A DNA stretch of 64,000 bases, from IMG/VR virus record IMGVR_UViG_3300034045_000104. One strand, given 5' to 3'. This DNA comes from a virus. Lineage: Duplodnaviria > Heunggongvirae > Uroviricota > Caudoviricetes. The notes beneath the pieces were generated by a model that saw nothing but the letters and a program-made list of their open reading frames with translations, did no database searches and was not told where the DNA came from. A program made the translations under genes and the position numbers. Below are positions 10,968 to 41,272 of this stretch, piece by piece. Every line of letters begins with the position of its first letter. Position 1 is the stretch's first letter.

Positions 10968-11729
10968 TTATTTTGAACACCTAGCTTTAATCACACTCTG
11001 CTCAGAAAAACAATCAACTTGTCTAATTTCATTATTAATCCTTTTCACACTCCCATCATAATAATCCCTATCATTTTCACAGGCATCAATCTTATAGCCT
11101 AACTTATTTGATGAGATGGACAAAGAACCCGAACCATGATGAGAATCAAAGATAGTCATGCCAGGGCTTATGTATTTATTTAAAATCCAGTCATACAAAG
11201 CAACGGGCTTCTGACATGGATGGATTCGCATCTCATTTAATTTTTTATTGCCATTTTGAACATGGCCATTAATAACACCAGAACCTTGCATCATCCCACG
11301 CCACATGAATCTAAACAAATCCACTCTTGATGTCATGGAGTTATAAGCAATTTCACAATTACTTTGATCACTCCCCTCGTTGCATTTATCCCAAATGATT
11401 CTGCCAGAACCAAAATATTCATTAAAGTAATTGCATCCAAATATTATTTGATGTTTTGTGACTCTGCGCAACTCTTTAAAATACAAGCTGCCCACAGGTT
11501 CATCATCCCACTGTTTTCTTTTATATCCACCATCTACAACAAAAACCTTACCACCGTTAGCTTGTTCAACCCATGTTGAACGAGATGTACCTCCATGCTG
11601 TTTCCTACCCCACTGCGGGTCAACAATGCCGACATCATAATGATTGTCTTTAAGACCAGCCATAAACTCCATACAATCTACAAAATACAAAGAGGAGGTG
11701 CCAAGTGTTGTTTTTTCAAAATCTTTCAT
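10968..11729 (-). CDS. DNA methyltransferase, beta-class (N6-adenine or N4-cytosine; motif IV before motif I)
   Basis: N-terminal DPQW (DPPY/W-like motif IV, VGIVDPQWG) and C-terminal AdoMet motif I IFDSHHGSGSLSISSNKLGYKIDACEND. This order is typical of Pfam N6_N4_Mtase-type enzymes. Confidence 0.7.
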   Translation of the reverse strand: MKDFEKTTLGTSSLYFVDCMEFMAGLKDNHYDVGIVDPQWGRKQHGGTSRSTWVEQANGGKVFVVDGGYKRKQWDDEPVGSLYFKELRRVTKHQIIFGCNYFNEYFGSGRIIWDKCNEGSDQSNCEIAYNSMTSRVDLFRFMWRGMMQGSGVINGHVQNGNKKLNEMRIHPCQKPVALYDWILNKYISPGMTIFDSHHGSGSLSISSNKLGYKIDACENDRDYYDGSVKRINNEIRQVDCFSEQSVIKARCSK

Positions 11730-20152: not shown

Positions 20153-20181
20153 CAAAAAGGCGCACAATGACGCCTTTTTAG
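20153..20181. terminator. bidirectional rho-independent terminator
   Basis: aaaaa, GGCG-cacaatga-CGCC, ttttt, immediately downstream of minus-strand gene 20203-21756. Confidence 0.55.
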
Positions 20182-20202: not shown

Positions 20203-21756
20203 CTAAGCTGCTTTTAATAAGTGTTTCTTACCATCAAACATCTCAACTTCGACCCCTTTTTCTGAGAGATTGATATTGGTAATATCAGTAGCCTTGCACC
20301 ACCCCAACATTTCGCGCACAGACTCCCAAACAAGAGAAACATCAATTGATTTATTGTATCGGTTCATAATGCTATCAAAATCAGCGTTATATGTATCTAG
20401 TTCACAATCAGGACAGTGGTTTTCCCATAGATACTGAACAAAATCCCCATCTACACAATCCGTATAAAATGCCGTGCCTCCCTCATCAATAAACCACTCA
20501 ATATCATCATCACCAATCTTTAATGATTCACACAAAGTCACACAGCTAAAACCAATATAATTATCAATAAAACCTTTAACAGATTTAAACTCAATATTTA
20601 TTTCAGAACGATATAAATCCAACACTCTCTTAGGAGCTTTCGTGCCCCCAATGACCAAAGACACCTTTTCAAAGCCACTGCCCAACCTACAAAGCTCTAG
20701 TTCGTCCTCGTGACCATTACATGATAGCTTTGTACTGTCATCATAAACCCCTCTTACACCAGCCAAAGACACATCCCTTATATAAGAAGAAGTCCCAATA
20801 TACCCAACCTTGACCTCGCCCCAAAAATCAAAGTGCTCAACCTGATAACTGCCTTTTAAGCAACGCAAATAATTCAAAATCCCACAACTGCCTTTGGATT
20901 CTAAAAAGACAGTATTTAATCGCTCTTCAAATATAGCCTCAAGTTTTCCATGAACGATAGCCAACTCATCTGCTGAATTACTAATAGACCGTCTATCTGG
21001 TAGAGTAGGGGAGATACAATCAGTACAGCCATTAACAACAATGGTAAAAGGTGCAATCTCTTTACAGGCTATATGCTTTCCATGCCAATACAATTCGCCC
21101 GAGCCCTGATTAGAAACTCCAATGACACAACCTTCAAAATCACCCGCACCCTTTTCACTAATTAGCCAATCATGCTCATCACGCCTTACTTTTACACCAT
21201 TAATTACAATATCGAGATTATAAAATCTATAGCCAGACAACCTGATATTATCCATTTCCTTAACACTATAAAAAACATGGTCTTTCAAAGATTCAATAAA
21301 ACCCTCTTTACAAACAAATTCACTGGTGAAGCCATCAACATAATCATCACACTCAAGCAAATCTTGATTGTCCAGTAACTCAACAACCTCTTGGCGATAA
21401 GTAGGCTCTGACCAAAATCTATCACAATCAATACTCAGTTGCTTATTGCCACTTCTAAAAGTAGCTTTTGTCGAGGCAGCAATCATCATGAAAACGCCCA
21501 TACCAGCTGGTTTCTGGTCAGAAACCATTTGCGCATCATAGCCAGTATCAGCCACTCTTAACAAGTGAGTGAAGTCAACAAGCACATCACCATCATTGTG
21601 ACACGTTATGATGCCGCTATCACCAAGCTCGATTTTGCAATTTTGGGCATGTGCGCGAACAGCATTTTCAATAAGCTCCTCGATAATCATGTTTTTATTA
21701 CCGATAAATTTCAAAACATCTGAAAAGAACCGTGACTCATTTATTAATTTACTCAT
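20203..21756 (-). CDS. GHKL (Bergerat-fold) ATPase-like protein
   Basis: The N-terminus has an N-box-like EELIENAVRAHA, a G1-like HNDGDV and a G2-like KPAGMGVF, in the order and spacing expected for the histidine-kinase/Hsp90/MutL ATPase fold. The rest of the protein is unassigned. Confidence 0.4.
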   Translation of the reverse strand: MSKLINESRFFSDVLKFIGNKNMIIEELIENAVRAHAQNCKIELGDSGIITCHNDGDVLVDFTHLLRVADTGYDAQMVSDQKPAGMGVFMMIAASTKATFRSGNKQLSIDCDRFWSEPTYRQEVVELLDNQDLLECDDYVDGFTSEFVCKEGFIESLKDHVFYSVKEMDNIRLSGYRFYNLDIVINGVKVRRDEHDWLISEKGAGDFEGCVIGVSNQGSGELYWHGKHIACKEIAPFTIVVNGCTDCISPTLPDRRSISNSADELAIVHGKLEAIFEERLNTVFLESKGSCGILNYLRCLKGSYQVEHFDFWGEVKVGYIGTSSYIRDVSLAGVRGVYDDSTKLSCNGHEDELELCRLGSGFEKVSLVIGGTKAPKRVLDLYRSEINIEFKSVKGFIDNYIGFSCVTLCESLKIGDDDIEWFIDEGGTAFYTDCVDGDFVQYLWENHCPDCELDTYNADFDSIMNRYNKSIDVSLVWESVREMLGWCKATDITNINLSEKGVEVEMFDGKKHLLKAA

Positions 21757-21821
21757 AAAACATTCCTATATTAACGAATTAAAAAACAATTATAAAACGA
21801 CTATAAATTCAAGCCATAAAA

Positions 21822-22640
21822 CTAAACAAGCCTTCCGTTTATATATCCCTTCAGTTCTACAATATCATTTGAAAATTCTCTATTGACTCTATCAATACAC
21901 TTAAGAGCATCACCTTTCTTTATAAACTTATGTCCAAAACTCCCATTCTCAGTGTATTTATAACCATTTTTCAAAAAACGAATAAAGAAACCCACATCCT
22001 TAATATAAACTTTAAAATAATCCAATACATCCACTCGCTCTTTAGGCTTTTTTACTACAGGAAAGAACCTGGACTTAATTTTTTTCATCACATCCTCATT
22101 TAGACCCGTTAGAGTAAGAAACACACAATCATTAATTGTGTAGCTCTTAACAAAGTCCAATAACTGCACGGTGGTTGAATAATATGTTGTGAATGGCTTT
22201 ATACCTCGCTGCTGTGCTTTATACCCCGTACTCACCTTGACACGAACTCCAGCGGTTGCTAACTGCTCAACAGTTAATGCTTTTTTACACCCAACCTTAA
22301 ACATATTGAGATAAGAACGAAATGTCATATTCCTTTGACCTTTGTGATAATAACCTTTTGAGCAGCCCCAACTGTCATCATCCCAACCCTCGCCATTTTT
22401 TTCATACCGTGCTTTTTCCTCGTCACGATATGCCTGTGCAACTAATTGCATTTCTTGCAAAGTTCCAGCAAAGCTCCCGCCAGTAAGATGCGGTCTTGCC
22501 TCCCAACTTCTGTCCATCTGCCATTTGCCAGTACGGTCATTAAAAGAAGTTCCACTACTACAGCCCTCCAACAAAACAGGAACACAACGACCATCACCAA
22601 GTTCGATGAATTGTTTATCAAATAAAATGTTATAGCTCAT
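21822..22640 (-). CDS. hypothetical protein
   Basis: 272-aa ORF. Confidence 0.4.
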   Translation of the reverse strand: MSYNILFDKQFIELGDGRCVPVLLEGCSSGTSFNDRTGKWQMDRSWEARPHLTGGSFAGTLQEMQLVAQAYRDEEKARYEKNGEGWDDDSWGCSKGYYHKGQRNMTFRSYLNMFKVGCKKALTVEQLATAGVRVKVSTGYKAQQRGIKPFTTYYSTTVQLLDFVKSYTINDCVFLTLTGLNEDVMKKIKSRFFPVVKKPKERVDVLDYFKVYIKDVGFFIRFLKNGYKYTENGSFGHKFIKKGDALKCIDRVNREFSNDIVELKGYINGRLV

Positions 22641-22735
22641 ATCAAAATCCTAAATAATCTAATTAAAACCATTATAGAAAGGCAAAAAAAAGAGCCGATT
22701 AAGACTCTTTTAAGAATTATACACCTTATTTAAAT

Positions 22736-23353
22736 TTACAAACCCCCATTTAAATACATTAATTTAACTGGGGACTTCCATACTCTTAAATCTGAAAGAT
22801 AGGTAATCACATCATTTATAGTGAGATAATCCCGCTTGGATTCCGCATCATTCCATACGTACATGGTTCCCTCATATCCATCAACGCCATACAAATGCGC
22901 AAAGACAACACCATCACAATCAAACAACTTGTATGACAACTCATTATAATTAAGAAACTCTATAGTGGAATACTCATCCAGAAACACGAAACCATCCCGT
23001 TTAATTGTATCTAACTCAAACAATACACCTCCAAATAAAATGTATTCCATATCATCAAAGTCATTCCATTCAGTAAAATAGCAATATTCTTGCTCATAGG
23101 CATCTTTTAAATTCTTGAAACCCTCACTCACAACTACTTTTAACGCATCTTTTTCTTGCGCAATATAACGACTGCCTTGAATTACAAAACCACTATTCAT
23201 GCCCTTGCCAGTAACAGAGCATTTACGTGCAAAAAGAATATCAACATCACGCACAATCTCTTTCTTTTTTTCAGAAATCGCAACAAAACAATCTGCGTCT
23301 TTACGCTCCTGAAGGGTGGCTAGTTCACCCATAAGCTCATTATATAAATTCAT
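22736..23353 (-). CDS. hypothetical protein
   Basis: 205-aa ORF. Confidence 0.4.
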   Translation of the reverse strand: MNLYNELMGELATLQERKDADCFVAISEKKKEIVRDVDILFARKCSVTGKGMNSGFVIQGSRYIAQEKDALKVVVSEGFKNLKDAYEQEYCYFTEWNDFDDMEYILFGGVLFELDTIKRDGFVFLDEYSTIEFLNYNELSYKLFDCDGVVFAHLYGVDGYEGTMYVWNDAESKRDYLTINDVITYLSDLRVWKSPVKLMYLNGGL

Positions 23354-23473
23354 ATCTCACCATTATTCTAATTATTAAGATTATAGAGTGACTATAAAGA
23401 CCAAGCCTTATTCACATAAAGCCATTTTCATAACCAACACCCCAAATAAAAATAAATAAAACATATTAGACAT

Positions 23474-24232
23474 TCACTTATTGCAATCAAAAAATGCTTT
23501 CGCAAAACCATTAGGTGTTACGCTCCTTAACATTTTCGTTCTTTCACTAGATCCGCCTAAAGATGTGTGCATCTTGCTACCAAGATGAGGAAATACACTC
23601 CTATCCTCACCAATATTGGCAACAGTCGGAGGAACAAACTTACCCCAAAGCCCCGTTTTCTTTGTGTAAGCCTCGCCTTCAAAGCCTTCGGCATAATCAC
23701 AAGGGTTGAAATAAAAGGGTTTAGAATTTAATTCAGGTATTAATTTAGCCATTCTACCAACTGGATTTTCTATCACCCAAAACTCTGGGTCATAAAGCTC
23801 AACTGTTCTTAAAGCTTGTCGTACTAAGTGTATTGCTTTTTGTGTACGCCCGCTTAAATCTTTTTGGGCGAACCAACGAGCACCAGAACAAGCGAACTCA
23901 GTACATGGGCAGGCAGCTAAAACCCCCCACACACCCTCAATACCAAGCTCCTCAAACAAATACTCACAACAAAAATCATTAATATCAATTCCGTGCTTCA
24001 AATCTAAATTAATAACATTGTATCCCGCATCCCAATATGGCTTTGCCCATTGCCCAGTAAAATCAAATAAACTCAGAATAGTTTTTGTACAATTACTATC
24101 ATTCCTTCGCTCACCGGCTTCTGCCAACCATTGCTCTTCAGACGATTCACTAACACTGCGTATAAACTCAGGATCGGCAAAATATTCTTGCCTAAGAAAA
24201 TCCAAACCCATTTGTAAATCATGCTTACTCAT
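23474..24232 (-). CDS. minimal C5-cytosine DNA methyltransferase-like protein (no obvious target-recognition domain)
   Basis: Motif I-like ILSLFDFTGQWAKPYWDAGYNVINLDLKH (compare LSLFSGIGG...AGFEVV), PC motif IV AACPCTEFACSG, ENV motif VI VIENPVG, and a motif X-like SVTPNGFAKAFF (compare TPRE..RLQGFPD). Only 252 aa. GxGG is degenerate, reading TGQW. Confidence 0.55.
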   Translation of the reverse strand: MSKHDLQMGLDFLRQEYFADPEFIRSVSESSEEQWLAEAGERRNDSNCTKTILSLFDFTGQWAKPYWDAGYNVINLDLKHGIDINDFCCEYLFEELGIEGVWGVLAACPCTEFACSGARWFAQKDLSGRTQKAIHLVRQALRTVELYDPEFWVIENPVGRMAKLIPELNSKPFYFNPCDYAEGFEGEAYTKKTGLWGKFVPPTVANIGEDRSVFPHLGSKMHTSLGGSSERTKMLRSVTPNGFAKAFFDCNK

Positions 24233-24846: not shown

Positions 24847-25785
24847 ATGAAATATTTGATCATATTGACCACACTATTCATTTCAATATCAGCACAAGCA
24901 ATAAAACCAGTAGATGGCTTTTATTGGGACCCTACAAGTAGCGGGCGTGGCTTAACCATAGAGGTCCAAAAAAATACGCTCGTTGTTGCATTTTATGCCT
25001 ATGATGATTCAAATATAGGTAGATGGTATCTGGGAAGCGGGCCTTACGACTCAAACGCAAGCGTATTCAACGGCCACTGGGATGCATATGACGGAGGGCA
25101 ATGTGCAGGTTGCGCATATACATCACCTACAATAAATACAGGAGAATCAAAAGGAGCGTTCACAATAAATTTCTTAAGTTGGCAAAAAGCACGTATGACG
25201 TGGGCTGGCGGAACAACTAATCTTGAGAGATTTAATTTTTCATACCCTTCACCTAATTCTTACATTCAAGGAACATGGGTAACTACAGAATTCATAGACA
25301 CTTTAGCCATTGGAGAAAAAACTATTTTTATGGGGGAAACATTTATTAATGATGGAACCGAATTTGTCCAAGGAAGTCTTTTTGGCTCTTTAAGCCGTCC
25401 CGCAGTTGGTAGTTTAATCGAAGTTGATCCAGCAGATGGTGAAAATATATATGGTATTTTGTTAGATTCGTCATCAAGCTTTTATCGGTACTATGTTTAT
25501 AAAGCAAATAAAAATAAGTTTGCAGGCCTTTCTTACCTTTACCTTAAAACAGAACAACCAGGCTCTGGTTTACCAGTGATTGGGAGTAAAATTGGAGAAT
25601 ATCAACCAACAACAAAAAATTCTAAATCAGTGCCAGAAAATGAACGCCCACTTCAAGATGAAATTGATGCGCACGAGTATGCTTTACAGAAAGAGCATAG
25701 TACATCAAAGGGCGGGGTTGAGATAACCCAAATACAACTGGATACACTTATGAAATTACAGAATCAAATAGAAACTCAAAAATAA
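24847..25785 (+). CDS. secreted protein of unknown function (signal peptide)
   Basis: MKYLIILTTLFISISAQA followed by IKP is a classic Sec signal. It has a strong RBS, is the only plus-strand gene in a 48-kb minus-strand block, and is convergent with the Sir2 gene. Confidence 0.6.
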   Translation: MKYLIILTTLFISISAQAIKPVDGFYWDPTSSGRGLTIEVQKNTLVVAFYAYDDSNIGRWYLGSGPYDSNASVFNGHWDAYDGGQCAGCAYTSPTINTGESKGAFTINFLSWQKARMTWAGGTTNLERFNFSYPSPNSYIQGTWVTTEFIDTLAIGEKTIFMGETFINDGTEFVQGSLFGSLSRPAVGSLIEVDPADGENIYGILLDSSSSFYRYYVYKANKNKFAGLSYLYLKTEQPGSGLPVIGSKIGEYQPTTKNSKSVPENERPLQDEIDAHEYALQKEHSTSKGGVEITQIQLDTLMKLQNQIETQK

Positions 25786-25847: not shown

Positions 25848-26558
25848 TTATTTGTTAATATGCCTCTTTTCCTCATTAATTAGATAATTAACTAAATGAG
25901 GAACACCAGTTGTTGCCACAGATTTGTTTAAAGACATATTTGTAATTCCATTATTTTCAGCATTTGGATCAATATAATAACAAGGAGATATTCCTTTTTT
26001 GTAGTGCAAAAGACTAGCTGCAGGAAACACCTGCAAAGAAGTACCTACAACAATGAGAATATCAGCATTTTCCACAAGCTGTGCCGCATACCCAAACAAA
26101 GGCACTTCTTCACCAAACCATACAATATTAGGCCTTAATTGAAACCCGTCAACGCCACAATCACCTAAATTTAAGTCACTATAGCCAATATCATAAACAT
26201 CTTGCGAGTTAATATTAACACTTCTGGCTTGAGTTATCATTCCATGTAAGTGGACAACATTAGAAGAGCCTGAACGCTCATGTAAATCATCAATGTTTTG
26301 CGTAACAATTGCAACATCAAACAATTGCTCCAACCTCGCTAAAGCAACATGCGCCTTATTTGGGGCCGTGTTAGAAATCTCATTTCTTCTTTTATTATAA
26401 AACCCTAAAACCAAACCCGAATTTTCATTCCACCCATCTACACTTGCCACTGTGCGAACATCATGCTTAGCCCAAAGGCCATTTCCATCACGGAAAGTTT
26501 CAATCCCACTTTCGGCGCTAACACCCGCTCCAGTCAACACTACAATATTTTTTATCAT
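25848..26558 (-). CDS. Sir2-family NAD-dependent protein deacylase
   Basis: GAGVSAESGIETFRDGNGLW (Sir2 NAD-binding signature GAGISAESGIPTFRG) and TQNIDDLHERSG (compare TQNIDGLHQRAG). Only one Cys lies where the Zn-ribbon CxxC...CxxC is expected. Confidence 0.8.
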   Translation of the reverse strand: MIKNIVVLTGAGVSAESGIETFRDGNGLWAKHDVRTVASVDGWNENSGLVLGFYNKRRNEISNTAPNKAHVALARLEQLFDVAIVTQNIDDLHERSGSSNVVHLHGMITQARSVNINSQDVYDIGYSDLNLGDCGVDGFQLRPNIVWFGEEVPLFGYAAQLVENADILIVVGTSLQVFPAASLLHYKKGISPCYYIDPNAENNGITNMSLNKSVATTGVPHLVNYLINEEKRHINK

Positions 26559-26631
26559 AAGCCATTATACAAATACAAAAAAAGGGCTGCAACCTATCAA
26601 CCCTTTTAATTTGACACCATGTTTGTGGTAA

Positions 26632-27120
26632 TTAAAAAGGCTGATCCATATCTGAATCAAAATCATCAAAGCTAGGCGTTGAAGCTGGAGCTTGTGGAGC
26701 TTGTGGAGCTTGTGGCTGTGGAGCTTGTGGCTGTGGAGCTTGCTGATTACTACCACCTCTTGGCTGCCCACCTTGGGCTGAGCCATTGCCTGAATTACCA
26801 AGCATTTGCATCTCATTTGCCACAATTTCGGTAGTGTATCGATCAACACCATTTGCATCAGTCCATTTGCGGGTTTGATTTTTACCCTCAATTAGCACCT
26901 GACTTCCTTTTTTTAAATACTCTCCAGCAATCTCAGCCAACCTACCAAAAAACACAATTTTATGCCATTCGGTTTTAACCTTATCTTCACCGGTACTCTT
27001 ATCTTTCCACGACTCTGATGTTGCTACTGATATATTTGTGACCGCAGCGCCTGCCGCAGTATATCTCACCTTAGGATCTTCCCCTAAATTACCAACCACA
27101 ACTGTTTTAGAATAACTCAT
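26632..27120 (-). CDS. ssb: single-stranded DNA-binding protein
   Basis: OB-fold N-terminus (...[31 protein letters not shown]...RYTTEIVA), a Gly/Gln/Pro-rich linker with PQAPQ repeats, and an acidic C-terminal tail [12 protein letters not shown] (compare the DDDIPF tip). Confidence 0.85.
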
Positions 27121-27226
27121 ACAAACCTCTTTTTAAAATAATTAATAATTAAACAACTCTGAATTATAATGGCACTACATTCTGCACGAATATAATAAAC
27201 CTTTCAATTCAACTTTATAACCGCCA

Positions 27227-27235
27227 TTATCCACA
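27227..27235 (+). promoter_or_regulatory. perfect DnaA box TTATCCACA upstream of ssb
   Basis: Exact 9-mer in the 27121-27457 intergenic region, about 110 bp upstream of the ssb start. Confidence 0.3.
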
Positions 27236-27457
27236 TCCAAAACATAGGTGCACACATTACCTTTTATTTTTACAATAAAAGACTCAAGACCACTATGCAA
27301 TTGCACCATCTTTTTTACTACACAACCCAAACTCATCTGAATTGTAACTTTCACTACAAACCAAACCCGAAAACAACACCATCAAAACAATTAATATCTT
27401 CATGCCAGCCTCCAAATTATTTAAGTCATTTTAGTACAGCTAAAAAACTGCCTAGTA

Positions 27458-27946
27458 TTAAAAAGCAACTTGCTTTAAAACCACTTGATTTAAAAATCCT
27501 TTAATAGCCCGTTCATAAATTTCATAATGAGCTAATTCATAATCAATTTTTATTTGAGGATTATTAATATCCCCACCATATTCACCATCAAGCAACTGAT
27601 GAGCCCCATCGCCATCATCAAACTGCTCTTCCACCAGCTTGCTTAAATCATTCGCATGAGCTATATCATCACAATGATCATAATCAGGATAAAATTTCTC
27701 TACAAAATCCCATTCACTTAAATAGGTTGCCTGGCTTTTTATTCGGAACTTAACAATGAAATCAACAACCAATGGGTCATGCCTATATGGACTATCAAAA
27801 AATACTACCTTAAGCGTATCCAGACAAAGCATAGCAACTGTTAAAACAGTATTTTCTGCATCATCAAAAAAAACATTAACCCTTTGATAATTATCATCAT
27901 TAACAATACCCAGCTTCACACATCCAATCTTCTTTTTCATACTCAA
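27458..27946 (-). CDS. hypothetical protein
   Basis: 162-aa ORF. Confidence 0.4.
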   Translation of the reverse strand: MSMKKKIGCVKLGIVNDDNYQRVNVFFDDAENTVLTVAMLCLDTLKVVFFDSPYRHDPLVVDFIVKFRIKSQATYLSEWDFVEKFYPDYDHCDDIAHANDLSKLVEEQFDDGDGAHQLLDGEYGGDINNPQIKIDYELAHYEIYERAIKGFLNQVVLKQVAF

Positions 27947-27984
27947 TATTCTGTTTAATTATGACATAATAACAAGACTAAAAA

Positions 27985-28266
27985 TTAGTAAATCCAAGTT
28001 TCATAAATCCGAATATTAACTTCAACGTCCTCGTTAGGAACATCAGACTCAAGACCAACACAAACATCTCTAAAAGCCACATCATCAAACAACACAATAT
28101 CAGGCATCTTTACTACGAATTGATCAAAATGCTCGGCCAACATCCTTTTAAGACGTAAATAAAATGATTTCTTGCCCGCCTTGTCATCATAGACATTTTT
28201 AACAACGCCAATGACAGGCGTTTCACCACGATCTTTGTCCATTACCACAAAACTCTTTATAGCCAT
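27985..28266 (-). CDS. hypothetical protein
   Basis: 93-aa ORF. Confidence 0.35.
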   Translation of the reverse strand: MAIKSFVVMDKDRGETPVIGVVKNVYDDKAGKKSFYLRLKRMLAEHFDQFVVKMPDIVLFDDVAFRDVCVGLESDVPNEDVEVNIRIYETWIY

Positions 28267-28305
28267 TCTAACTCTCCAAATTTACGATAAATAATTATAT
28301 TGCAC

Positions 28306-29202
28306 CTACAAATCCACCGAAACATGACCGCCTAAAATACCAACATCAGAAACAGATTGTACGTTTTTCAATTGGTCGTCAAAAAAAATATCTGCCCCAA
28401 AAGCTTTTACAAACTCACCTTTATCTAAGCCACCCAAAAACACAGATTCATCCATCCTTAAACCCCAATGCCTTATAGTTTTTAGAACCCTTTTGTGGGT
28501 TGGGCTACAGCGAGCCGTTATCATACAAGTACGAATTGGCACATCATCAATCCCAAAACAAGATTGAATATCATGCAAACCAGACAAAAAACCTTTAAAC
28601 AAACCATCTTCTAATGGCACGTTTTCATTTGCGACTTCGTGTTCTGTAAAGGCTTTTAATCCACCTGACTTAAAAAGACTTTCAGAAGCACTAGAGAACA
28701 ATACAGCATCACCATCAAAACCAATTCTCAAGGGCTCATCATCACACTCATTAGAAACAAAAGACCCATCAACACGTAAATGCGCTGCCGCTATACCATT
28801 ATCAAGACAGCTTTTAACTTCCTTGGCATGGGCTGACAAAAACAAATCAACACCATAAGCTTTAATGTATTCACTTCTTGAACCACCTTTAGTAAAAGCA
28901 CCTTTTTGAATATTAAGTCCATAATGTTCAATTGAATTAAAAATCCGTAAACCAACATCACCATGATTCCTAGAAACCATCACCACTTCAACTAAGGCAT
29001 CCCCAGTAACAGGGCTTTTAATATTTAGAAGTTTTTCCACAATCCCAAATGCAACTCCCTTTTTGAGAATTTTAGTTTCGTTTTGAATTTGATAATCCCG
29101 ATATTCATCCACTCCTTTGGATAAAAATAATTGATGTTCACTATCAAGATTAAATAAAACCCTTGAACTTACCGCTATTACCAATTTTGACATAATATTC
29201 AC
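28306..29202 (-). CDS. hypothetical protein; possible HAD-like phosphatase or nucleotidase
   Basis: 298-aa protein with an internal IGFDGDAVLF (DxDx[TV]-like HAD motif I). The assignment is weak. Confidence 0.3.
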   Translation of the reverse strand: MNIMSKLVIAVSSRVLFNLDSEHQLFLSKGVDEYRDYQIQNETKILKKGVAFGIVEKLLNIKSPVTGDALVEVVMVSRNHGDVGLRIFNSIEHYGLNIQKGAFTKGGSRSEYIKAYGVDLFLSAHAKEVKSCLDNGIAAAHLRVDGSFVSNECDDEPLRIGFDGDAVLFSSASESLFKSGGLKAFTEHEVANENVPLEDGLFKGFLSGLHDIQSCFGIDDVPIRTCMITARCSPTHKRVLKTIRHWGLRMDESVFLGGLDKGEFVKAFGADIFFDDQLKNVQSVSDVGILGGHVSVDL

Positions 29203-29213
29203 CTATACTTGAT

Positions 29214-29726
29214 TTAAGATATTATATGAATGCCAAGAATCCGCATCAAATGCAAGGCTTGAGATTTAGCATCATTCAAAGCATTATGCTTTTCCCCATA
29301 CATTTCAAATTCTTCATCAAGCATCAACTTACAAGCAGTTCGATAACAACAATTATTATGATAGTCCCAAGGAACAACTAACCCCAATTGTTCATAGGAG
29401 TTTCTTAGTATTACGTTGTCAAAATCAGCGCCATTACCCCACAACTCATCAATATCTCCAGCCCAAACAGAAAACTCAACCAAGGCATCCTTAAGGCTCT
29501 TAGGTTTATCAAATAAAGCATTGCGAACACAATCATTTTGCTCCATCCAAAATTGGATACACTTACCATCAATTTGCGAACCTGATTCTAAAGAGCTGCT
29601 CAAATCCACATTAATATAAAATTCATCAAGAACGTTCGTTGAATCAAATTTCACAGCTCCGATTGAAACAATAGCGGCATTACTCTTTGTGCTAAAAGTC
29701 TCCAAGTCCAACATTATTTTATTCAT
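29214..29726 (-). CDS. DEDDh-family 3'-5' exonuclease (DnaQ/epsilon-like)
   Basis: Exo I MLDLETFS (DxE), Exo II WGNGADFD, Exo III HNALNDA (H-x4-D). Confidence 0.6.
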   Translation of the reverse strand: MNKIMLDLETFSTKSNAAIVSIGAVKFDSTNVLDEFYINVDLSSSLESGSQIDGKCIQFWMEQNDCVRNALFDKPKSLKDALVEFSVWAGDIDELWGNGADFDNVILRNSYEQLGLVVPWDYHNNCCYRTACKLMLDEEFEMYGEKHNALNDAKSQALHLMRILGIHIIS

Positions 29727-29776
29727 TCACATTACCAAATTAAGATAATAGAATTATATACAAACGATGATTTGAA

Positions 29777-30625
29777 TTATGAAGCCCTGGCTATTGGTTC
29801 CCAATTTTCCAGATCCTCTTTAACTGCATCAAACTGAAAACCCCTGACTCTCCTTAACCCTGAAACATTATAAGTGGTTTTAAGATATTCCAGAAAATAA
29901 ATCCTATCAGGCAATTTAAGAAATATAGCATTTAACTCTTTTACCTTTTTAGGTGTTAACACATCCCATTCTTCATCTGTATATTCATGCAACTCACCAG
30001 AATAGCACTCAGGCATATCTACAAACACATTAAGAACACTGCCAGCCAATACATCTTTTTTAGCTTTAGTGGTGGCAGCAAACACACACTTATCAATGGT
30101 TAGCTGAGTATCTTTAATACTACAAGAAACAACCAATGATGGTTTCGATGCAACAGTAATATTTCCACCCAATTTATGCGAAATATTCATATTTACTTGT
30201 ATTTGCTTCAAACCAGTTTTTTCATCAACTTTTGATTCAATGCTCGTAAAGCTAAAGTATAAATCATGTTCAACTAATTTTTTTACAACTGCTTTTTTTA
30301 CATCTTGATATCTTGTGTGATAAACCAATTCAGGCCTTCCTTTTGCCACGTACTCCAATCTAGCACTACATGGCACAATCAATGGATTTGCATTAAAATC
30401 AAGGATCGCTTGATTAAGTGCCATTTTTTGAACCTGGCTGACCTGGTGAACGCTATACTCTTTTTTCTTCATTAACTGATTAATGATAGATTCATAGTTC
30501 ATCGGGCCACAATCATCAGTTGTAGCAACATCGTCCAATACAGGCACAGCTGCAAATTTTGGTTTACTAGGACCACGATAATATTTCTTACCACGATACT
30601 TTCTATTATTTTTTGATTTTGGCAT
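29777..30625 (-). CDS. hypothetical protein with basic N-terminus
   Basis: 282-aa ORF beginning MPKSKNNRKYRGKKYYRGPSKPK. Confidence 0.4.
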   Translation of the reverse strand: MPKSKNNRKYRGKKYYRGPSKPKFAAVPVLDDVATTDDCGPMNYESIINQLMKKKEYSVHQVSQVQKMALNQAILDFNANPLIVPCSARLEYVAKGRPELVYHTRYQDVKKAVVKKLVEHDLYFSFTSIESKVDEKTGLKQIQVNMNISHKLGGNITVASKPSLVVSCSIKDTQLTIDKCVFAATTKAKKDVLAGSVLNVFVDMPECYSGELHEYTDEEWDVLTPKKVKELNAIFLKLPDRIYFLEYLKTTYNVSGLRRVRGFQFDAVKEDLENWEPIARAS

Positions 30626-30652
30626 AACTTACTCCTATTTATTCAACATCAA

Positions 30653-30934
30653 CTAACTACAAACAAGCGTTTGTTCTAACTCATCTTCACTAAGAACCTC
30701 AAAAGGGTGCTTCATTTTTTCATTGTCCCATGAAACACAACACGTTCTCTTAACTCCGAAAGCCTTAAGCTCTAACTCTTTTTTTCTAACATCAATGATT
30801 TTATAAAAATCATTAGATTTTATAGATCCCTTTAATTCCTCAACATCAGTTGCAAATCGGACCCATTTTCCAATACTGGACTTAATAACACTTATTGACT
30901 CACAAACCTTGTTACCGACCACAACGACCTCCAA
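30653..30934 (-). CDS. hypothetical protein
   Basis: 93-aa ORF. Confidence 0.35.
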   Translation of the reverse strand: MEVVVVGNKVCESISVIKSSIGKWVRFATDVEELKGSIKSNDFYKIIDVRKKELELKAFGVKRTCCVSWDNEKMKHPFEVLSEDELEQTLVCS

Positions 30935-30970
30935 AACTATTTATTAACGAATTATAATGAGGCGTTAATA

Positions 30971-31165
30971 TCACAAATCAGAAACACCAGTAAGTGCATA
31001 TTCATCAATCCAATTCTCGCCACATGACTCACACTCGCACTCACTAGTTGCACCCATAGATTCTGCCTGAATACGCCCAGCACTTATGTCTTCAGATTTA
31101 CAAAAAGGGCAACAACTTGGAGCTACCAGATAACTTGCTTTTTGCTTACTTGTTAATATACCCAT
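30971..31165 (-). CDS. small Cys-rich zinc-ribbon-like protein
   Basis: CCPFC...CECESC pattern in a 64-aa ORF. Confidence 0.35.
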   Translation of the reverse strand: MGILTSKQKASYLVAPSCCPFCKSEDISAGRIQAESMGATSECECESCGENWIDEYALTGVSDL

Positions 31166-31296
31166 TTATTTCTCTACTACAGTTCAGTTTATACATTTTA
31201 TAGATGCTAAAAAAAAAGCAGACCATTACAGCCCGCTTTAAAGGATCACTTTTTATTATTATTATCGACCCACACCCACTAAAATTATTATTATTA

Positions 31297-31512
31297 TTAT
31301 TTATCTTCCTTTATACAAAACCTATAAATCACCAAAAACAAATTCAGCACATTTATAATAACGTCCACAGTACTTGCCACCAAGCCCTGTGATCCAACCA
31401 ACCCAGAAACATCCTTTAATCGCTGTATATCATCAGCACTTAATTCAATCTCTATTTGCTCCAATCCATCAGGCACATTACTTTCAATTACATCCAATGC
31501 AAACATTTGCAT
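31297..31512 (-). CDS. hypothetical acidic protein
   Basis: 71-aa ORF. Confidence 0.3.
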   Translation of the reverse strand: MQMFALDVIESNVPDGLEQIEIELSADDIQRLKDVSGLVGSQGLVASTVDVIINVLNLFLVIYRFCIKEDK

Positions 31513-31583
31513 AAAATATCACCTGTTTAACCTAAAAAACATATTATAGACCGACTATTAATTCAGAATAAAGCCATTAAAAA

Positions 31584-32399
31584 TCAATCCTTAAGGGTTT
31601 TAACCAGAGGTATGCCATTAGCTCCTGATGGTATGTATACGGTTGTATGATTAGGGGAATCCGCCATAGCTCTCTGAGCCAAAATCGCTTCATGCTGGAG
31701 GTACTTTAAAGAGAGGGTAGAGTTAATAATCTTCTGTGCTTCAGCAATACCACGAGCTTCTTCAATTCTGATTTCAGCATCCTTTTTAGCAATTTGTCTT
31801 TGAGTTTCTTTTTCATCGAGCAATTGTTTGGCTGCTAACTTTTTTTCAACCGCTTGGGTCACTACTTTCGGATAATCAATGTTTCCTACAACTCCAGATA
31901 TTGCAACAAAAGGCGTTCCTTTTAAATACCCTCTAAGTTCCACCATAACAGCTTCTGCTATTTCACTGCGCATTTCCTTAACTTGTCTTGAATCTAGTTT
32001 TTGGACATGTTTTCTGACCATCGCACGCAAAGGCTCTCTGATAAATCTGGGATAAAAATTCAATCCAGCATATTCCTCAACAACATCCTTAATCGCACCT
32101 TTCTTGACTTTTATAATGGATTGAAACCTAAAATAAATATTCAGCTCATCTTTTGCTAAAATATTAAATTCCTCAGGATAGGTCTGGGGACGAATATCAA
32201 TGTTCAAAACTTCATTACGGTATAAACTTACACCATAGTTTGAAGGCCCGGTCATAACCCCTCGAAAACCACCTGTGCCAAACATTCTTGGATTCTCAAT
32301 CACATATCCTTCAGATCCTGGAGGCGTCATTGGATTACTACACGCTCCCAAACTAAATAAACCCACAAGAACCAAAATTCTTAAAATTACTTTTTTCAT
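31584..32399 (-). CDS. SPFH/Band-7 (prohibitin/HflC-like) family lipoprotein
   Basis: Signal and lipobox LFSLGAC. The central region (...YPRFIREPLRAMVRKHV...VAISGVVGNIDYPKVVTQAVEKKLAAKQLLDEKETQRQIAKKDAEIRIEEARG...) is typical of the SPFH domain and its coiled-coil tail. Confidence 0.6.
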   Translation of the reverse strand: MKKVILRILVLVGLFSLGACSNPMTPPGSEGYVIENPRMFGTGGFRGVMTGPSNYGVSLYRNEVLNIDIRPQTYPEEFNILAKDELNIYFRFQSIIKVKKGAIKDVVEEYAGLNFYPRFIREPLRAMVRKHVQKLDSRQVKEMRSEIAEAVMVELRGYLKGTPFVAISGVVGNIDYPKVVTQAVEKKLAAKQLLDEKETQRQIAKKDAEIRIEEARGIAEAQKIINSTLSLKYLQHEAILAQRAMADSPNHTTVYIPSGANGIPLVKTLKD

Positions 32400-32444
32400 A
32401 TTTACACCCCTACTTTACATTAATAAAAATCAAATTAATTTATT

Positions 32445-32687
32445 TTAACTTGAAAAACCTACCATAGCACCGGCAATCAAAGCCGCTGCCTGACCAGAAC
32501 TCAACGAACACGTTCTTGGTTCATTAGCTCGCTTAATAGCCCTCTGCAACCTCTGTTGCGCCTCATCTAAACGAACTTGGGCACGCCTTATATCTTCCTT
32601 GGCAGACAAAACCCTTTTTTCAAGCATCCCAATCATCCTAATTTGATTAGAACTACCAACCTTTTCAACATTCACTTTCATGGCCAC
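32445..32687 (-). CDS. hypothetical protein
   Basis: 80-aa ORF with coiled-coil-like content. Confidence 0.3.
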   Translation of the reverse strand: MAMKVNVEKVGSSNQIRMIGMLEKRVLSAKEDIRRAQVRLDEAQQRLQRAIKRANEPRTCSLSSGQAAALIAGAMVGFSS

Positions 32688-32741
32688 AACCTTCTCCTAA
32701 AATCATAAAGAACAATAATCCATTGTAATAACACTAAATAC

Positions 32742-33098
32742 TTAACAAATATATTTCCTTTGGGTCTTATCTGCAACCTGTACATCTAAACCAATTTTAG
32801 AAGCATCAGCTTTACCGTTTTTATATGCATCAAATTGCTCTTTACTTACAAGTTTACGCGACTGCACTTTAGACTCCTGCATCCCAAAATGCACCTCAAC
32901 AAGCTCCTTTTTAATTACAACCAAATCTGTTCCCGTTAACGATTCCAAATCCGCCTTGCGCTTTTCCATTTCCTCCTCAATACGGCGATTTAACTCAACA
33001 GCAGCTCCACACTTATAACTATTAGCCATCACACCCTTGTAACCACCTTCCTTACGTAATCTCTCAACCGTTTCAACCAAATACTCATGGGTATACAA
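32742..33098 (-). CDS. hypothetical protein
   Basis: 118-aa ORF. Confidence 0.35.
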   Translation of the reverse strand: MYTHEYLVETVERLRKEGGYKGVMANSYKCGAAVELNRRIEEEMEKRKADLESLTGTDLVVIKKELVEVHFGMQESKVQSRKLVSKEQFDAYKNGKADASKIGLDVQVADKTQRKYIC

Positions 33099-33141
33099 AG
33101 CAATAATTGCATCGGCCTCAAACCCCTTAAACTCAACAACC

Positions 33142-33718: not shown

Positions 33719-33773
33719 CTCATCACCTTAATATTTTAATTAAGACATTATAATTTTGCTAAAAATACACAAA

Positions 33774-34895: not shown

Positions 34896-35026
34896 ACAAC
34901 AAACAATCCTCTTCCTTTATATACATAACATCTTTTATATTTAATATATTCATATATAACTCACTTTTATTAATACAACCATTGCCTTACACCTCAAGTA
35001 TAACTCAACGAAAAACCACACAACCC

Positions 35027-36068: not shown

Positions 36069-36115
36069 TTTAATTCCTTCAAATAGTTAATAATTACAAT
36101 TACACTATAAACACA

Positions 36116-41270: not shown

Positions 41271-41272
41271 AA

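What the first reader, a model, noticed from the sequence alone, without database searches (positions are those of the whole stretch)
20203..24232. Minimal C5-cytosine methyltransferase-like protein (252 aa, no TRD, degenerate motif I) two genes from a GHKL-ATPase-like protein
The 23474-24232 product keeps motifs I-like, IV (PC), VI (ENV) and X of C5-MTases in canonical order, but it is about 100 aa shorter than the smallest characterised enzymes. It has no room for a target-recognition domain, and the GxGG of motif I reads TGQW. It may be an inactive scaffold, may need a partner for target recognition, or may act on a non-DNA substrate. Two unknown ORFs lie between it and a 517-aa protein with GHKL N-, G1- and G2-box-like motifs. 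An ATPase paired with an MTase-like protein recalls modification-dependent defence or anti-defence modules, but this combination is not a described system. A separate, conventional beta-class MTase is at 10968-11729.
Basis: partly seen in the sequence, partly recalled or inferred. Interest (0 to 1): 0.6.

Follow-up and report, generated by a model that had tools for sequence, protein, structure and literature searches.

The report
Compact orphan cytosine methyltransferase, unlinked GHKL neighbour
The short methyltransferase-like gene is an ordinary member of a very large family of compact DNA cytosine-5 methyltransferases carried by phages and plasmids, one member of which has been shown to be active, and its closeness to a GHKL-type ATPase-like gene looks coincidental.

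Summary
All four ORFs exist as described. The 252-aa protein misses Pfam on its own but hits phrog_757 "DNA methyltransferase" at E 4.6e-44. It has more than 2,100 homologues, mostly 190-220 aa, and matches in 1,338 phage records; 31 of 34 aligned relatives hit PF00145. Its confident AlphaFold model matches C5 DNA methyltransferases at every significant hit (DNMT3A/3B, M.HaeIII, DNMT1, M.HhaI). A 236-aa family member (the Dcm of phage KarlJaspers K42) puts 5mC on DNA at CCWGG. Its catalytic C82, E128 and K175/K176 align with invariant C110, E155 and K191/K192 here. The odd motif I is conserved across the clade, and 42 residues between motifs VIII and IX form a small recognition segment.

The 517-aa protein is a real GHKL-fold protein (MutL by profile; Hsp90/TRAP1, MORC and RIIA by fold). 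It belongs to a separate, unannotated mobile-element family. No MTase lies next to it in 7 other loci, and no GHKL gene lies next to the MTase in 6 other loci. A terminator-like hairpin lies between the two genes. The pairing is most likely chance adjacency in an accessory-gene array.

The parts
23474..24232 (-). Compact orphan DNA cytosine-C5 methyltransferase (252 aa), phrog_757 / 'Dcm-like' family
   Evidence: phrog_757 E 4.6e-44. 2,126 homologues. Matches in 1,338 phage records. 31/34 relatives hit PF00145. AF2 pLDDT 89. Foldseek PDB top hits are all C5-MTases.
24089..24232 (-). Clade-specific N-terminal extension (residues 1-48), predicted helical, function unknown
   Evidence: Present in about half of the aligned relatives, including all the closest ones; the family core starts at about residue 49. 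pLDDT about 90 for residues 11-50.
24047..24079 (-). Motif I variant LSLFDFTGQW (residues 52-62); the first Gly of FxGxG is replaced by Phe
   Evidence: D57 and W62 are invariant and G60 is nearly invariant. The position of the first Gly varies in the clade (Y/F/H/E/T/V). The Drexlerviridae orthologue keeps F-D-G-S-G.
23903..23908 (-). Motif IV Pro-Cys (P109-C110), catalytic cysteine
   Evidence: Invariant in 34/34. Aligns with C82 of the Drexlerviridae Dcm, which the paper lists as the putative catalytic residue.
23762..23770 (-). Motif VI E155-N156-P157 (ENV equivalent)
   Evidence: Invariant in 34/34. E155 aligns with E128 of the Drexlerviridae Dcm.
23654..23668 (-). Motif VIII equivalent Y189-T-K191-K192-T193
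   Evidence: Y189, K191 and T193 are invariant. K191/K192 align with K175/K176 of the Drexlerviridae Dcm.
23528..23653 (-). 42-residue segment between motifs VIII and IX (residues 194-235): a small target-recognition-like segment
   Evidence: Length measured (97 residues in a canonical PF00145 enzyme). Family-conserved V213, P215, G218-S219, G226-G227, S229, T232-K233. Lower model confidence here (pLDDT 66-80).
23513..23527 (-). Motif IX equivalent R236-S237-V-T239-P240
   Evidence: R236, S237, T239 and P240 are invariant.
22736..23353 (-). 205-aa ORF of unknown function; adjacent, no evidence that it belongs with the MTase
   Evidence: No Pfam, PHROG, NCBIfam, PADLOC or PDB match. No relative next to any MTase or GHKL homologue.
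22688..22711 (-). Terminator-like hairpin (9 pairs) followed by a T-run, in the gap between the 205-aa and 272-aa ORFs
   Evidence: The number of such sites in the region is not above chance (3 against 2.5 expected); only its position directly after a stop codon is suggestive.
21822..22640 (-). 272-aa ORF of unknown function; adjacent, not conserved with either family
   Evidence: No family or PDB match. No relative in other loci.
20203..21756 (-). 517-aa GHKL-fold protein (N-terminal Bergerat ATPase-like domain plus Hsp90/MORC-like middle region plus C-terminal domain), from an unannotated mobile-element family
   Evidence: 367 representatives by exhaustive HMMER. Family profile against PDB: MutL N-terminal domain, E 1.7e-6. 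12/60 members hit HATPase_c_3. AF2 pLDDT 89.7. Foldseek: TRAP1/Hsp90/MORC2 and RIIA-like.
20153..20180 (-). Terminator-like hairpin (11 pairs) just after the stop codon of the 517-aa ORF
10968..11729 (-). Second, unrelated orphan MTase (N6/N4 amino-MTase family) about 12 kb away
   Evidence: PF01555 N6_N4_Mtase, E 8.2e-9.

Best explanation
Gene 23474-24232 encodes a stand-alone (orphan) SAM-dependent DNA cytosine-C5 methyltransferase of the compact 'Dcm-like' family (phrog_757) that is widespread in phages and plasmids.

Anatomy:
- The core is about 200 aa and keeps the catalytic machinery: nucleophile C110 (motif IV, PC), E155 (motif VI, ENP), K191/K192 (motif VIII equivalent) and R236-S-x-T-P (motif IX).
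- The large target-recognition domain of classical enzymes is reduced to a 42-residue segment. This resembles the small TRD of the DNMT3 catalytic domain (the DNMT3 comparison is from my own knowledge).
- This clade adds a 48-residue helical N-terminal extension of unknown role.

Inferred mechanism: after the element enters a cell, the enzyme methylates a short cytosine-containing motif on the element's own DNA and so protects it from host restriction enzymes. It acts alone, without the neighbouring genes.

The 517-aa gene two ORFs downstream is a genuine GHKL-fold protein from a different, uncharacterised mobile-element family. Its position near the MTase is coincidental adjacency within a long array of accessory genes on one strand.

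Shown: family membership, fold, conservation of catalytic residues, and lack of linkage. Inferred: activity of this particular protein, its target motif, and the anti-restriction role.
For: - Profile hit to phrog_757 'DNA methyltransferase', E 4.6e-44, residues 45-251.
- 2,126 homologues, mostly 190-220 aa, some named DNA cytosine methyltransferase.
- tblastn matches in 1,338 phage records, annotated 'Dcm-like C5 cytosine methyltransferase' or 'DNA methyltransferase'.
- 31/34 relatives hit PF00145. Several exceed the gathering score over profile positions 3-110.
- AF2 model pLDDT 89, pTM 0.88. All 41 Foldseek PDB hits at E <= 1e-3 are C5 DNA MTases.
- Experimental precedent: the 711-bp dcm of phage K42 gives 5mC on msDNA at CCWGG by LC-MS, and a C82A/E128A/K175A/K176A mutant is inactive (10.1101/2023.08.16.553469). 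The 711-bp Bas07 orthologue has C, E, K, K at those same numbers. They align with C110, E155, K191 and K192 of the window protein (35% identity, E 2e-23).
- These residues are invariant in 34/34 relatives.
- Independence from the GHKL gene: six loci with 60-64% identical MTases contain no relative of the 205-, 272- or 517-aa proteins. Seven loci with GHKL relatives contain no C5-MTase.
- A terminator-like hairpin lies at 22711-22688.
- Close MTase relatives sit in typical orphan-MTase contexts: plasmid transfer and KfrA/KlcB genes, and other MTases.
Against: - The window protein itself gets no Pfam hit. The family profile does not reach solved C5-MTases by sequence (DNMT2 only at E 0.51).
- In this clade the first glycine of motif I (FxGxG) is replaced by an aromatic or other residue. 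The experimentally active Drexlerviridae member keeps F-D-G-S-G and is only about 35% identical, so activity is extrapolated across a real difference in the cofactor loop.
- The experimental paper is a preprint. I matched its residue numbering through the Bas07 orthologue, not the K42 sequence itself.
- Target specificity and the anti-restriction role were not tested. CCWGG frequency in the window is as expected by chance and gives no information.
- The linkage test rests on 13 loci, several of them short.
Confidence: 0.78

Rival explanations
1. The MTase-like protein, the two unknown ORFs and the GHKL protein form one functional module, either a new modification-linked defence or an anti-defence system. 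In it the ATPase supplies target recognition or regulation for a methyltransferase core that lacks a TRD.
For: - The four genes are on the same strand within 4 kb, with 65-120-nt gaps.
- The MTase has only a 42-residue recognition segment.
- GHKL proteins of the MORC type do act on DNA (fold match to MORC2-DNA structures).
Against: - There is no co-occurrence in six MTase loci or seven GHKL loci.
- The family works as a single gene elsewhere. In Drexlerviridae, the lone dcm is enough to methylate DNA when expressed in E. coli.
- PADLOC gives no hit for the ATPase or the two unknown ORFs.
- A terminator-like hairpin lies between the 205- and 272-aa ORFs.
- The whole 1-48 kb stretch is one-stranded, so shared orientation carries no information.
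Confidence: 0.05
2. The 252-aa protein is catalytically inactive (a scaffold or DNA-binding decoy), or it methylates something other than DNA, such as tRNA in the manner of DNMT2. The reason would be that its cofactor loop (motif I) is degenerate and its TRD is minimal.
For: - Motif I reads F-D-F-T-G instead of F-x-G-x-G.
- There is no Pfam hit.
- The only PDB sequence match that is a methyltransferase is DNMT2, at a non-significant E 0.51.
Against: - The catalytic Cys, the ENP Glu, the KK pair and motif IX are invariant in 34/34 relatives across 46-69% identity. This implies selection for catalysis.
- The motif I variant is a conserved feature of the clade, with an invariant D57 and W62 around it, so it is not decay.
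- A family member methylates DNA.
- The best structural matches are DNA MTases, often in DNA-bound form.
Confidence: 0.1
3. The MTase is the first step of a cytosine hypermodification pathway, as in phage C5-MT/TET/glycosyltransferase clusters, and is not a simple protective methylase.
For: - Phage C5-MTases can feed TET-type oxidation and further tailoring (PMC8256090).
- The window carries other nucleotide-metabolism genes: ribonucleotide reductase, 5'-nucleotidase and a PAPS-reductase-like protein.
Against: - No TET/JBP, glycosyltransferase or other tailoring-enzyme domain was found in the genes flanking the MTase. In the published clusters these lie within five genes.
- Neighbourhoods of close relatives also lack them.
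Confidence: 0.04

Closest known systems
Dcm-like C5 cytosine methyltransferase of Drexlerviridae coliphages (phage KarlJaspers K42 Dcm, 236 aa; Bas07 bas07_0054); PHROG family phrog_757
   Same: - Same compact single-domain architecture.
- Same order of motifs.
- Catalytic C, E and KK residues align (C110, E155, K191/K192).
- Same C-terminal GG-S-x-RTK-x-RS-x-TP-x-GFA-x-A-F-x-x-N block.
- Strong profile hit.
- A lone gene among small early or accessory genes.
   Different: - Only about 35% identical.
- The window clade has an extra 48-residue N-terminal extension.
- It replaces the first Gly of motif I with Phe or Tyr, whereas the coliphage enzyme keeps F-D-G-S-G.
- It has a shorter insert before motif VIII.
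- Its target motif is unknown; CCWGG is reported for K42.
DNMT3A/DNMT3B catalytic domain (for example PDB 2qrv, 6f57, 8tdr)
   Same: - Best structural matches (E about 1e-6).
- The motif I context L-F-D is shared (DNMT3 sequence from my own knowledge).
- Small target-recognition region compared with bacterial type II enzymes (from my own knowledge).
- The K42 paper also used DNMT3A as its structural reference.
   Different: - 14-20% identity and TM-scores of only 0.35-0.5.
- DNMT3 works as a DNMT3L- or homo-oligomer and sits within a large regulatory protein.
- There is no evidence of direct descent.
Classical bacterial type II C5-MTases (M.HhaI, M.HaeIII; Pfam PF00145)
   Same: - Same fold.
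- Motifs I-VI of relatives match PF00145 positions 3-110.
- PC catalytic dipeptide.
   Different: - About 100 aa shorter.
- 42 residues between motifs VIII and IX instead of about 97.
- ENP instead of ENV, Y-T-K-K-T instead of Q-x-R-x-R, and no GNAV motif X.
- The C-terminal half is invisible to the Pfam model.
- There is no cognate restriction enzyme.
Hsp90/TRAP1, MutL and MORC GHKL ATPases (for the 517-aa neighbour)
   Same: - N-box E-x-x-x-N and G2 box conserved.
- The family profile hits the MutL N-terminal domain (E 1.7e-6).
- The fold match to TRAP1 covers about 460 columns, including the middle domain, and MORC2 also matches.
   Different: - 10-15% identity and TM-scores of about 0.4.
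- R34 replaces the usual Asp of the N-box (N-A-x-D).
- The window clade has N-D-G-x-V instead of D-x-G-x-G, so ATP binding is in doubt.
- The C-terminal domain is different.
Phage T4 RIIA ('protector from prophage-induced early lysis')
   Same: - Best matches in the viral structure library (E 1.3e-10, up to 616 aligned columns).
- RIIA is also a GHKL-fold protein encoded by a mobile element.
   Different: - No sequence-level relationship: hhalign probability 5% over 41 columns; 0/60 family members hit a PHROG carrying a functional description, rIIA included; tblastn E 3.4.
- No rIIB-like gene in the window.
- No relative in 50,697 phage records.

Membership tests
Compact phage/plasmid 'Dcm-like' C5-MTase family (phrog_757) | Significant full-length match to the family profile | tested here: met
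   phrog_757 E 4.6e-44, residues 45-251 against profile positions 10-218 of 247.
Compact phage/plasmid 'Dcm-like' C5-MTase family (phrog_757) | Single-domain architecture with a core of about 200 aa and a short segment between motifs VIII and IX | tested here: met
   Alignment of 34 relatives. The segment is 42 residues.
Compact phage/plasmid 'Dcm-like' C5-MTase family (phrog_757) | Residues equivalent to the experimentally mutated C82, E128 and K175/K176 of K42 Dcm | tested here: met
   C110, E155 and K191/K192 align with them and are invariant or nearly invariant.
Compact phage/plasmid 'Dcm-like' C5-MTase family (phrog_757) | DNA cytosine-C5 methylation activity | not testable with these tools
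   Shown only for the K42 member. This protein needs expression followed by EM-seq or LC-MS.
Classical C5 DNA MTases (Pfam PF00145) | Score above the Pfam gathering threshold | tested here: not met
   The window protein gets no hit. Relatives score 21-32.5 bits against a cut-off of 22, over positions 3-110 only. The active Drexlerviridae orthologue scores 12.7 bits.
Classical C5 DNA MTases (Pfam PF00145) | Motif IV Pro-Cys catalytic nucleophile and motif VI E-N-V glutamate | tested here: met
   P109-C110 and E155-N156-P157(-V158) are invariant.
Classical C5 DNA MTases (Pfam PF00145) | Motif I F-x-G-x-G cofactor loop | tested here: inconclusive
   The motif reads F-D-F-T-G. The second Gly is kept and the first is replaced. 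The replacement is conserved within the clade but variable in residue. The effect on SAM binding is unknown.
Classical C5 DNA MTases (Pfam PF00145) | Motif VIII Q-x-R-x-R, motif X G-N-x-V and a large variable TRD | tested here: not met
   Y-T-K-K-T stands in place of Q-x-R-x-R. There is no GNAV, only N251. The segment is 42 residues instead of about 97.
Classical C5 DNA MTases (Pfam PF00145) | C5-MTase fold | tested here: met
   All 41 Foldseek PDB hits at E <= 1e-3 are C5 DNA MTases.
GHKL (Bergerat-fold) ATPases, for the 517-aa protein | N-box E-x-x-x-N and G2 box G-x-G | tested here: met
   E27, N31, G85 and G87 are invariant in 60/60.
GHKL (Bergerat-fold) ATPases, for the 517-aa protein | G1 box D-x-G-x-G with the adenine-binding Asp | tested here: not met
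   The window has N54-D55-G56-D57-V58. N54 aligns with MutL D58. 26/60 family members share N-[DN]-G-x-(non-G) and 34/60 are canonical.
GHKL (Bergerat-fold) ATPases, for the 517-aa protein | Bergerat fold followed by a transducer or middle domain | tested here: met
   Foldseek hits to TRAP1, Hsp90, GRP94 and MORC2, E down to 1.3e-12. Family profile against MutL, E 1.7e-6.
GHKL (Bergerat-fold) ATPases, for the 517-aa protein | ATP binding and hydrolysis | not testable with these tools
   Needs a biochemical assay.
T4-type RIIA/RIIB | Sequence-profile membership and an accompanying rIIB gene | tested here: not met
   hhalign probability 5%. No hit among 60 family members to any PHROG carrying a functional description, rIIA included. 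No rIIA or rIIB similarity in the window (PHROG scan of neighbours).
Known defence systems that pair an MTase with an ATPase (PADLOC models, including R-M, BREX and DISARM-type components) | Profile matches of the component proteins, and conserved gene neighbourhood | tested here: not met
   PADLOC gives only weak MTase_II hits for the 252-aa protein (E about 2e-3) and nothing for the 517-, 272- or 205-aa proteins. No conserved neighbourhood.

The most novel reading that the evidence does not exclude
The 517-aa protein, not the MTase, is the less ordinary item.
- It belongs to an unannotated family of about 530-aa GHKL-fold proteins with 367 representative clusters. The family has no Pfam or PHROG identity and no relative in 50,697 isolate phage genomes.
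- It occurs as a lone gene in accessory-gene arrays of large plasmids and uncultured mobile elements.
- Its overall fold resembles Hsp90, MORC and phage RIIA.
- The window's clade has systematically replaced the adenine-binding Asp and the second Gly of the G1 box (N-D-G-x-V instead of D-x-G-x-G), while keeping the N-box Glu/Asn and an invariant Arg255.

The most novel reading is that this clade is a GHKL protein that either works without ATP or binds a different ligand, and that it serves establishment or counter-defence of the element, as RIIA does for T4.

Separately, the MTase clade's motif I variant and its N-terminal extension could reflect an altered cofactor or altered substrate handling.
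Probability: 0.15. Interest if true: 0.55.

Novelty: new member of a known kind. Interest (0 to 1): 0.2.

Why it matters
The result mostly matters as a correction. Very short C5-MTase-like genes with an odd motif I are common in phages and plasmids, and they should be read as compact orphan Dcm-like methyltransferases, not as degenerate or partner-dependent enzymes. They are practically relevant because such enzymes protect mobile DNA from restriction. At least one of them is the trigger sensed by the retron Ec86/Eco1 defence system.

Two modest open points remain:
- How does a 42-residue segment specify a target sequence in this family?
- What does the unannotated GHKL family do on plasmids and uncultured mobile elements, and does its clade with the non-canonical G1 box still bind ATP?

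Tried and rejected
- **Direct Pfam, NCBIfam and PDB sequence searches with the 252-aa protein** gave nothing significant. The narrow family profile against PDB gave only coiled-coil noise and DNMT2 at E 0.51. Homology had to be shown through PHROG, relatives' Pfam hits and fold.
- **DNA-level searches of the region** against phage and plasmid collections found no match.
- **Profile comparison of the MTase family with one canonical 304-aa PF00145 enzyme** aligned only motifs I-IV, at low probability. It was not useful for mapping the C-terminal motifs.
- **Homology of the N-terminal extension to the small ORF upstream of dcm in Drexlerviridae** (same frame). Extending the alignment adds only about 1 bit, so I rejected the idea.
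- **Locus searches for the GHKL family** in IMG/VR and in GTDB genomes by peptide patterns confirmed no relatives.
- **The RIIA lead from the viral fold library** was tested by hhalign, a PHROG scan of 60 members and tblastn of T4 rIIA/rIIB. It holds as a fold-level resemblance only.
- **The 'methyltransferase' near the Paraburkholderia GHKL homologue** is a 162-aa NPPF amino-MTase, unrelated to the window's enzyme.
- **CCWGG depletion or enrichment in the window**: none (47 sites against 53 +/- 6 expected).
- **Deciding whether the window is a phage or a plasmid**: no structural or conjugation genes were found among about 45 ORFs scanned, so this stays unresolved.
- **Contig look-up for the window's own protein**: not on record.
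- **Not done**: I ran no further search on the 205- or 272-aa ORFs, because neither is conserved next to either family.

Full report
**Observation**

The gaps between them are 65-120 nt. From about position 1 to 48,000 the window is one long array of genes on the minus strand, with strongly negative GC skew. Shared orientation of neighbours therefore carries no information.

Recognisable genes in the window:
- class II ribonucleotide reductase and a ribonucleotide reductase small subunit
- RecD2 helicase
- an N6/N4 amino-MTase at 10968-11729
- 5'-nucleotidase, Sir2 and SSB
- a PAPS-reductase-like protein
- a sigma-factor-like protein
- a protein matching an 'anti-restriction' PHROG
- a T2SSE-type ATPase

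I found no virion or conjugation genes among about 45 ORFs scanned. I therefore call it a large mobile element, from a 143-kb metagenomic contig, without deciding between phage and plasmid.

**What the 252-aa protein is**

On its own it has no Pfam, NCBIfam or PDB sequence hit. It does match PHROG family phrog_757, 'DNA methyltransferase', at E 4.6e-44 over residues 45-251.

The family is very large:
- A homology search found 2,126 relatives, mostly 190-220 aa. Many carry precomputed PF00145 hits and some are named DNA cytosine methyltransferase.
- tblastn found the family in 1,338 of 50,697 phage records: Klebsiella 516, Escherichia 439, then Salmonella, Campylobacter, Vibrio and others. Typical annotations are 'Dcm-like C5 cytosine methyltransferase' or 'DNA methyltransferase'. 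In the T1-like phage JakobBernoulli the gene is 711 bp, or 236 aa.
- Scanned individually, 31 of 34 aligned relatives hit PF00145 (best E 8.3e-8). The matches cover profile positions about 3-110 of 324, which are motifs I to IV/V, and several exceed the gathering score.
- The window's nearest relatives score 21-23 bits. The experimentally supported Drexlerviridae orthologue scores only 12.7 bits. The window protein's own miss is therefore not evidence against function.

An AlphaFold model built on the family alignment is confident (pLDDT 89, pTM 0.88). All 41 Foldseek PDB hits at E <= 1e-3 are C5 DNA methyltransferases: DNMT3A/3B catalytic domains, M.HaeIII, DNMT1, the CP-933R prophage MTase and others. 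M.HhaI follows at E 1.4e-3.

**Anatomy**

The alignment of 34 relatives (46-69% identical to the window protein) shows a core of about 200 aa, plus an N-terminal extension in about half of the relatives, including all the closest ones.

| Feature | Residues | Conservation |
|---|---|---|
| Motif I variant L-S-L-F-D-[YF]-[ST]-G-x-W | 52-62 | D57 and W62 invariant |
| Motif II Asp | D77 | invariant |
| Motif III Asp | D83 | nearly invariant |
| Motif IV | P109-C110-T-x-F-x-x-S-G-A | invariant |
| Motif VI | E155-N156-P157-V-G-R | invariant |
| Motif VIII equivalent | Y189-T-K191-K-T193 | invariant |
| Motif IX | R236-S237-x-T239-P240 | invariant |
| C-terminus | F243...A246-F247...N251 | invariant |

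The position of the first Gly of FxGxG is occupied by Y, F, H, E, T or V in different members.

Between motif VIII and motif IX there are 42 residues, against 97 in a canonical 304-aa PF00145 enzyme encoded in locus L005. This short segment is itself conserved (V-E-P...G-S-K-M...G-G-K-S-E-x-T-K) and is modelled with lower confidence (pLDDT 66-80). It plays the part of a small TRD, comparable to the small TRD of DNMT3A/B. That comparison comes from my own knowledge and fits DNMT3 being the best fold match.

**Experimental precedent**

The preprint 10.1101/2023.08.16.553469 reports on the 711-bp dcm of the Drexlerviridae phage KarlJaspers strain K42:
- The gene is the trigger of the retron Ec86 defence system.
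- Expressing it yields 5mC on msDNA by LC-MS, at a CCWGG site.
- A C82A/E128A/K175A/K176A mutant is inactive.
- The authors also used DNMT3A as their structural reference.

A later paper cites the same mechanism (PMC12916289).

The 711-bp orthologue in phage JakobBernoulli has C, E, K and K at exactly those numbers. In a 35%-identity alignment (E 2e-23) they pair with C110, E155, K191 and K192 of the window protein. The family thus contains an active DNA C5-MTase of 236 aa. This contradicts the claim that the window protein is about 100 aa shorter than any characterised enzyme.

One caveat is real. The coliphage enzyme keeps F-D-G-S-G in motif I, whereas the window clade does not. Activity of this clade is therefore inferred from the invariant catalytic residues and has not been demonstrated.

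**What the 517-aa protein is**

The word-indexed search found a single relative. An exhaustive HMMER search found 367 representative clusters, typically 530-550 aa.

Evidence that it is a GHKL-fold protein:
- In 60 aligned members E27, N31, R34, G56, G85, G87, G226, P253, R255 and P375 are invariant.
- The family profile hits the N-terminal ATPase domains of MutL and PMS2 (E 1.7e-6).
- 12 of 60 members hit HATPase_c_3.
- The AlphaFold model is confident (pLDDT 89.7).
- The model matches TRAP1, Hsp90 and GRP94 over about 460 columns, and also MORC2 (E down to 1.3e-12, TM about 0.4).

The GHKL reading is correct, but the family splits cleanly into two clades:
- 34 of 60 members have the canonical D-[ND]-G-x-G G1 box.
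- The window's clade (26 of 60) has N-[DN]-G-x-(non-G). N54 sits at the position that aligns with MutL D58.
- From established knowledge of GHKL enzymes, that Asp contacts the adenine, and Asp-to-Asn mutants of Hsp90 lose ATP binding. Canonical ATP binding by this clade is therefore doubtful.

In the viral structure library the best matches are RIIA and RIIA-like proteins (E 1.3e-10), followed by phage topoisomerase II ATPase subunits and Hsp90. I tested RIIA membership and it fails:
- hhalign aligns only the N-box to G1 stretch (probability 5%).
- None of the 60 members hits a PHROG that carries a functional description, so none matches an annotated rIIA, topoisomerase or Hsp90 family.
- The window has no rIIA- or rIIB-like sequence.
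- The protein has no relative in 50,697 phage records.

Distant relatives (21-32% identity), annotated 'ATP-binding protein', occur on 15 large plasmids, four of them predicted conjugative. Examples are in Vibrio gigantis, Paraburkholderia fungorum and Hydrogenophaga, the last on a conjugative plasmid.

**Are the two genes linked?**

- Six loci encode MTases 60-64% identical to the window's. Their contexts are varied: a 143-kb contig of unknown type; a plasmid-like contig with KfrA, TrbC, VirB3 and VirB4; a contig with KlcB and an integrase; and contigs with other orphan MTases. None encodes a relative of the 205-, 272- or 517-aa proteins.
- Seven loci encode GHKL relatives: four metagenomic and three plasmid. 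They share no gene with each other or with the window except the GHKL gene itself.
- The one exception is a 162-aa protein, directly upstream of the GHKL gene in L010/L011 and at 27458-27946 in the window.
- The one 'methyltransferase' near a GHKL relative is an unrelated NPPF amino-MTase.
- PADLOC models of defence systems give only a weak MTase_II hit for the 252-aa protein and nothing for the other three.
- A terminator-like hairpin with a T-run sits between the 205- and 272-aa ORFs, and another just after the 517-aa stop. The count of such sites is not above chance, so this is only suggestive.

Taken together, the adjacency is best explained as chance within an accessory-gene array.

**Most likely mechanism**

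The 252-aa protein is a stand-alone SAM-dependent DNA cytosine-C5 methyltransferase. By the standard C5-MTase mechanism (established knowledge):
- C110 attacks C6 of a flipped-out cytosine.
- E155 protonates N3.
- K191/K192 take the place of the motif VIII arginines.
- The 42-residue segment and neighbouring loops read a short target sequence.

Its biological role is inferred from the family's distribution as an orphan gene in phages and plasmids: it modifies the element's own DNA to evade host restriction. A side effect is that it could be sensed by retron Eco1-type systems. Its target motif is unknown, and CCWGG frequency in the window gives no information.

I put 0.78 on this overall explanation. 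Family membership is close to certain. Activity of this clade and the anti-restriction role are less certain.

**Verdict**

The finding is a correct detection with an over-interpretation. It is a new member of a known kind and ordinary. The only points of residual interest are the unannotated GHKL family with its non-canonical G1-box clade, and how such a small C5-MTase selects its target.

Noticed in passing
L009 (Pseudomonas phage 8P, MT152150.1: match at 29549-30163, inside CDS 26390-41827): The closest cultured-phage relative of the compact MTase (44.6% identity) is not a separate gene. It is a domain inside a giant 15.4-kb 'structural protein' of about 5,100 aa. This suggests a methyltransferase carried in the virion and possibly injected with the DNA.
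   Followed up: no
window 20203-21756 (residues 54-58) and alignment A2: The GHKL family splits into two clean clades. 34/60 have the canonical G1 box D-[ND]-G-x-G with Q30, PAGWG and [YF]-R255. 26/60, including the window, have N-[DN]-G-x-(non-G) with E30, PAGMG, K227 and D-R255. All members have Arg in place of the usual Asp of the N-box (N-A-x-D).
   Followed up: partly
window 27458-27946 (-); L010 894-1382; L011 486-974: A 162-aa protein of unknown function in the window (next to SSB) has a 41%-identical homologue directly upstream of the GHKL homologue in two metagenomic contigs. It is the only gene besides the GHKL gene that recurs among the GHKL loci.
   Followed up: partly
window 24847-25785 (+): This is the only sizeable plus-strand gene in the 1-48 kb minus-strand array. 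It encodes a 312-aa protein with a signal-peptide-like N-terminus (MKYLIILTTLFISISAQA) and no family match. It lies between the MTase block and a Sir2-family gene (25848-26558, PF02146 E 6e-40).
   Followed up: no
window 26632-27120 (-): This SSB-like protein has a C-terminal tail of PQA/PQ repeats ([19 protein letters not shown]) before the acidic tip. The opposite strand carries a spurious repeat-derived ORF.
   Followed up: no
window 39039-45565 (-): Four large consecutive ORFs of 743, 477, 409 and 540 aa. The first matches a phage sigma-factor PHROG (phrog_351, E 5e-13; Sigma70_r3). The last matches an 'anti-restriction protein' PHROG (phrog_7245, E 1.5e-8). The middle two have no match.
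   Followed up: no
L005 1955-2869 and L007 1907-3536: Close relatives of the compact MTase sit next to further orphan MTases: a canonical 304-aa PF00145 enzyme in L005, and a D12-class-like protein plus a 259-aa PF00145 protein in L007. These are clusters of several methyltransferases on mobile elements.
   Followed up: no
L008 2387-3331 (Escherichia phage JakobBernoulli, bas07_0055 and bas07_0054): The 74-aa ORF upstream of the Drexlerviridae dcm is in the same reading frame as dcm, separated by a single stop codon and 9 nt. Its similarity to the window protein's N-terminal extension is not significant.
   Followed up: yes
window 33774-34538 (-); L002 1181-2296: A PAPS-reductase-domain protein is encoded about 10 kb from the MTase in the window. 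Another, a weak hit, lies about 6 kb from the MTase homologue on an unrelated 143-kb contig. The two proteins are not detectably similar by tblastn, so the recurrence may be coincidence.
   Followed up: no
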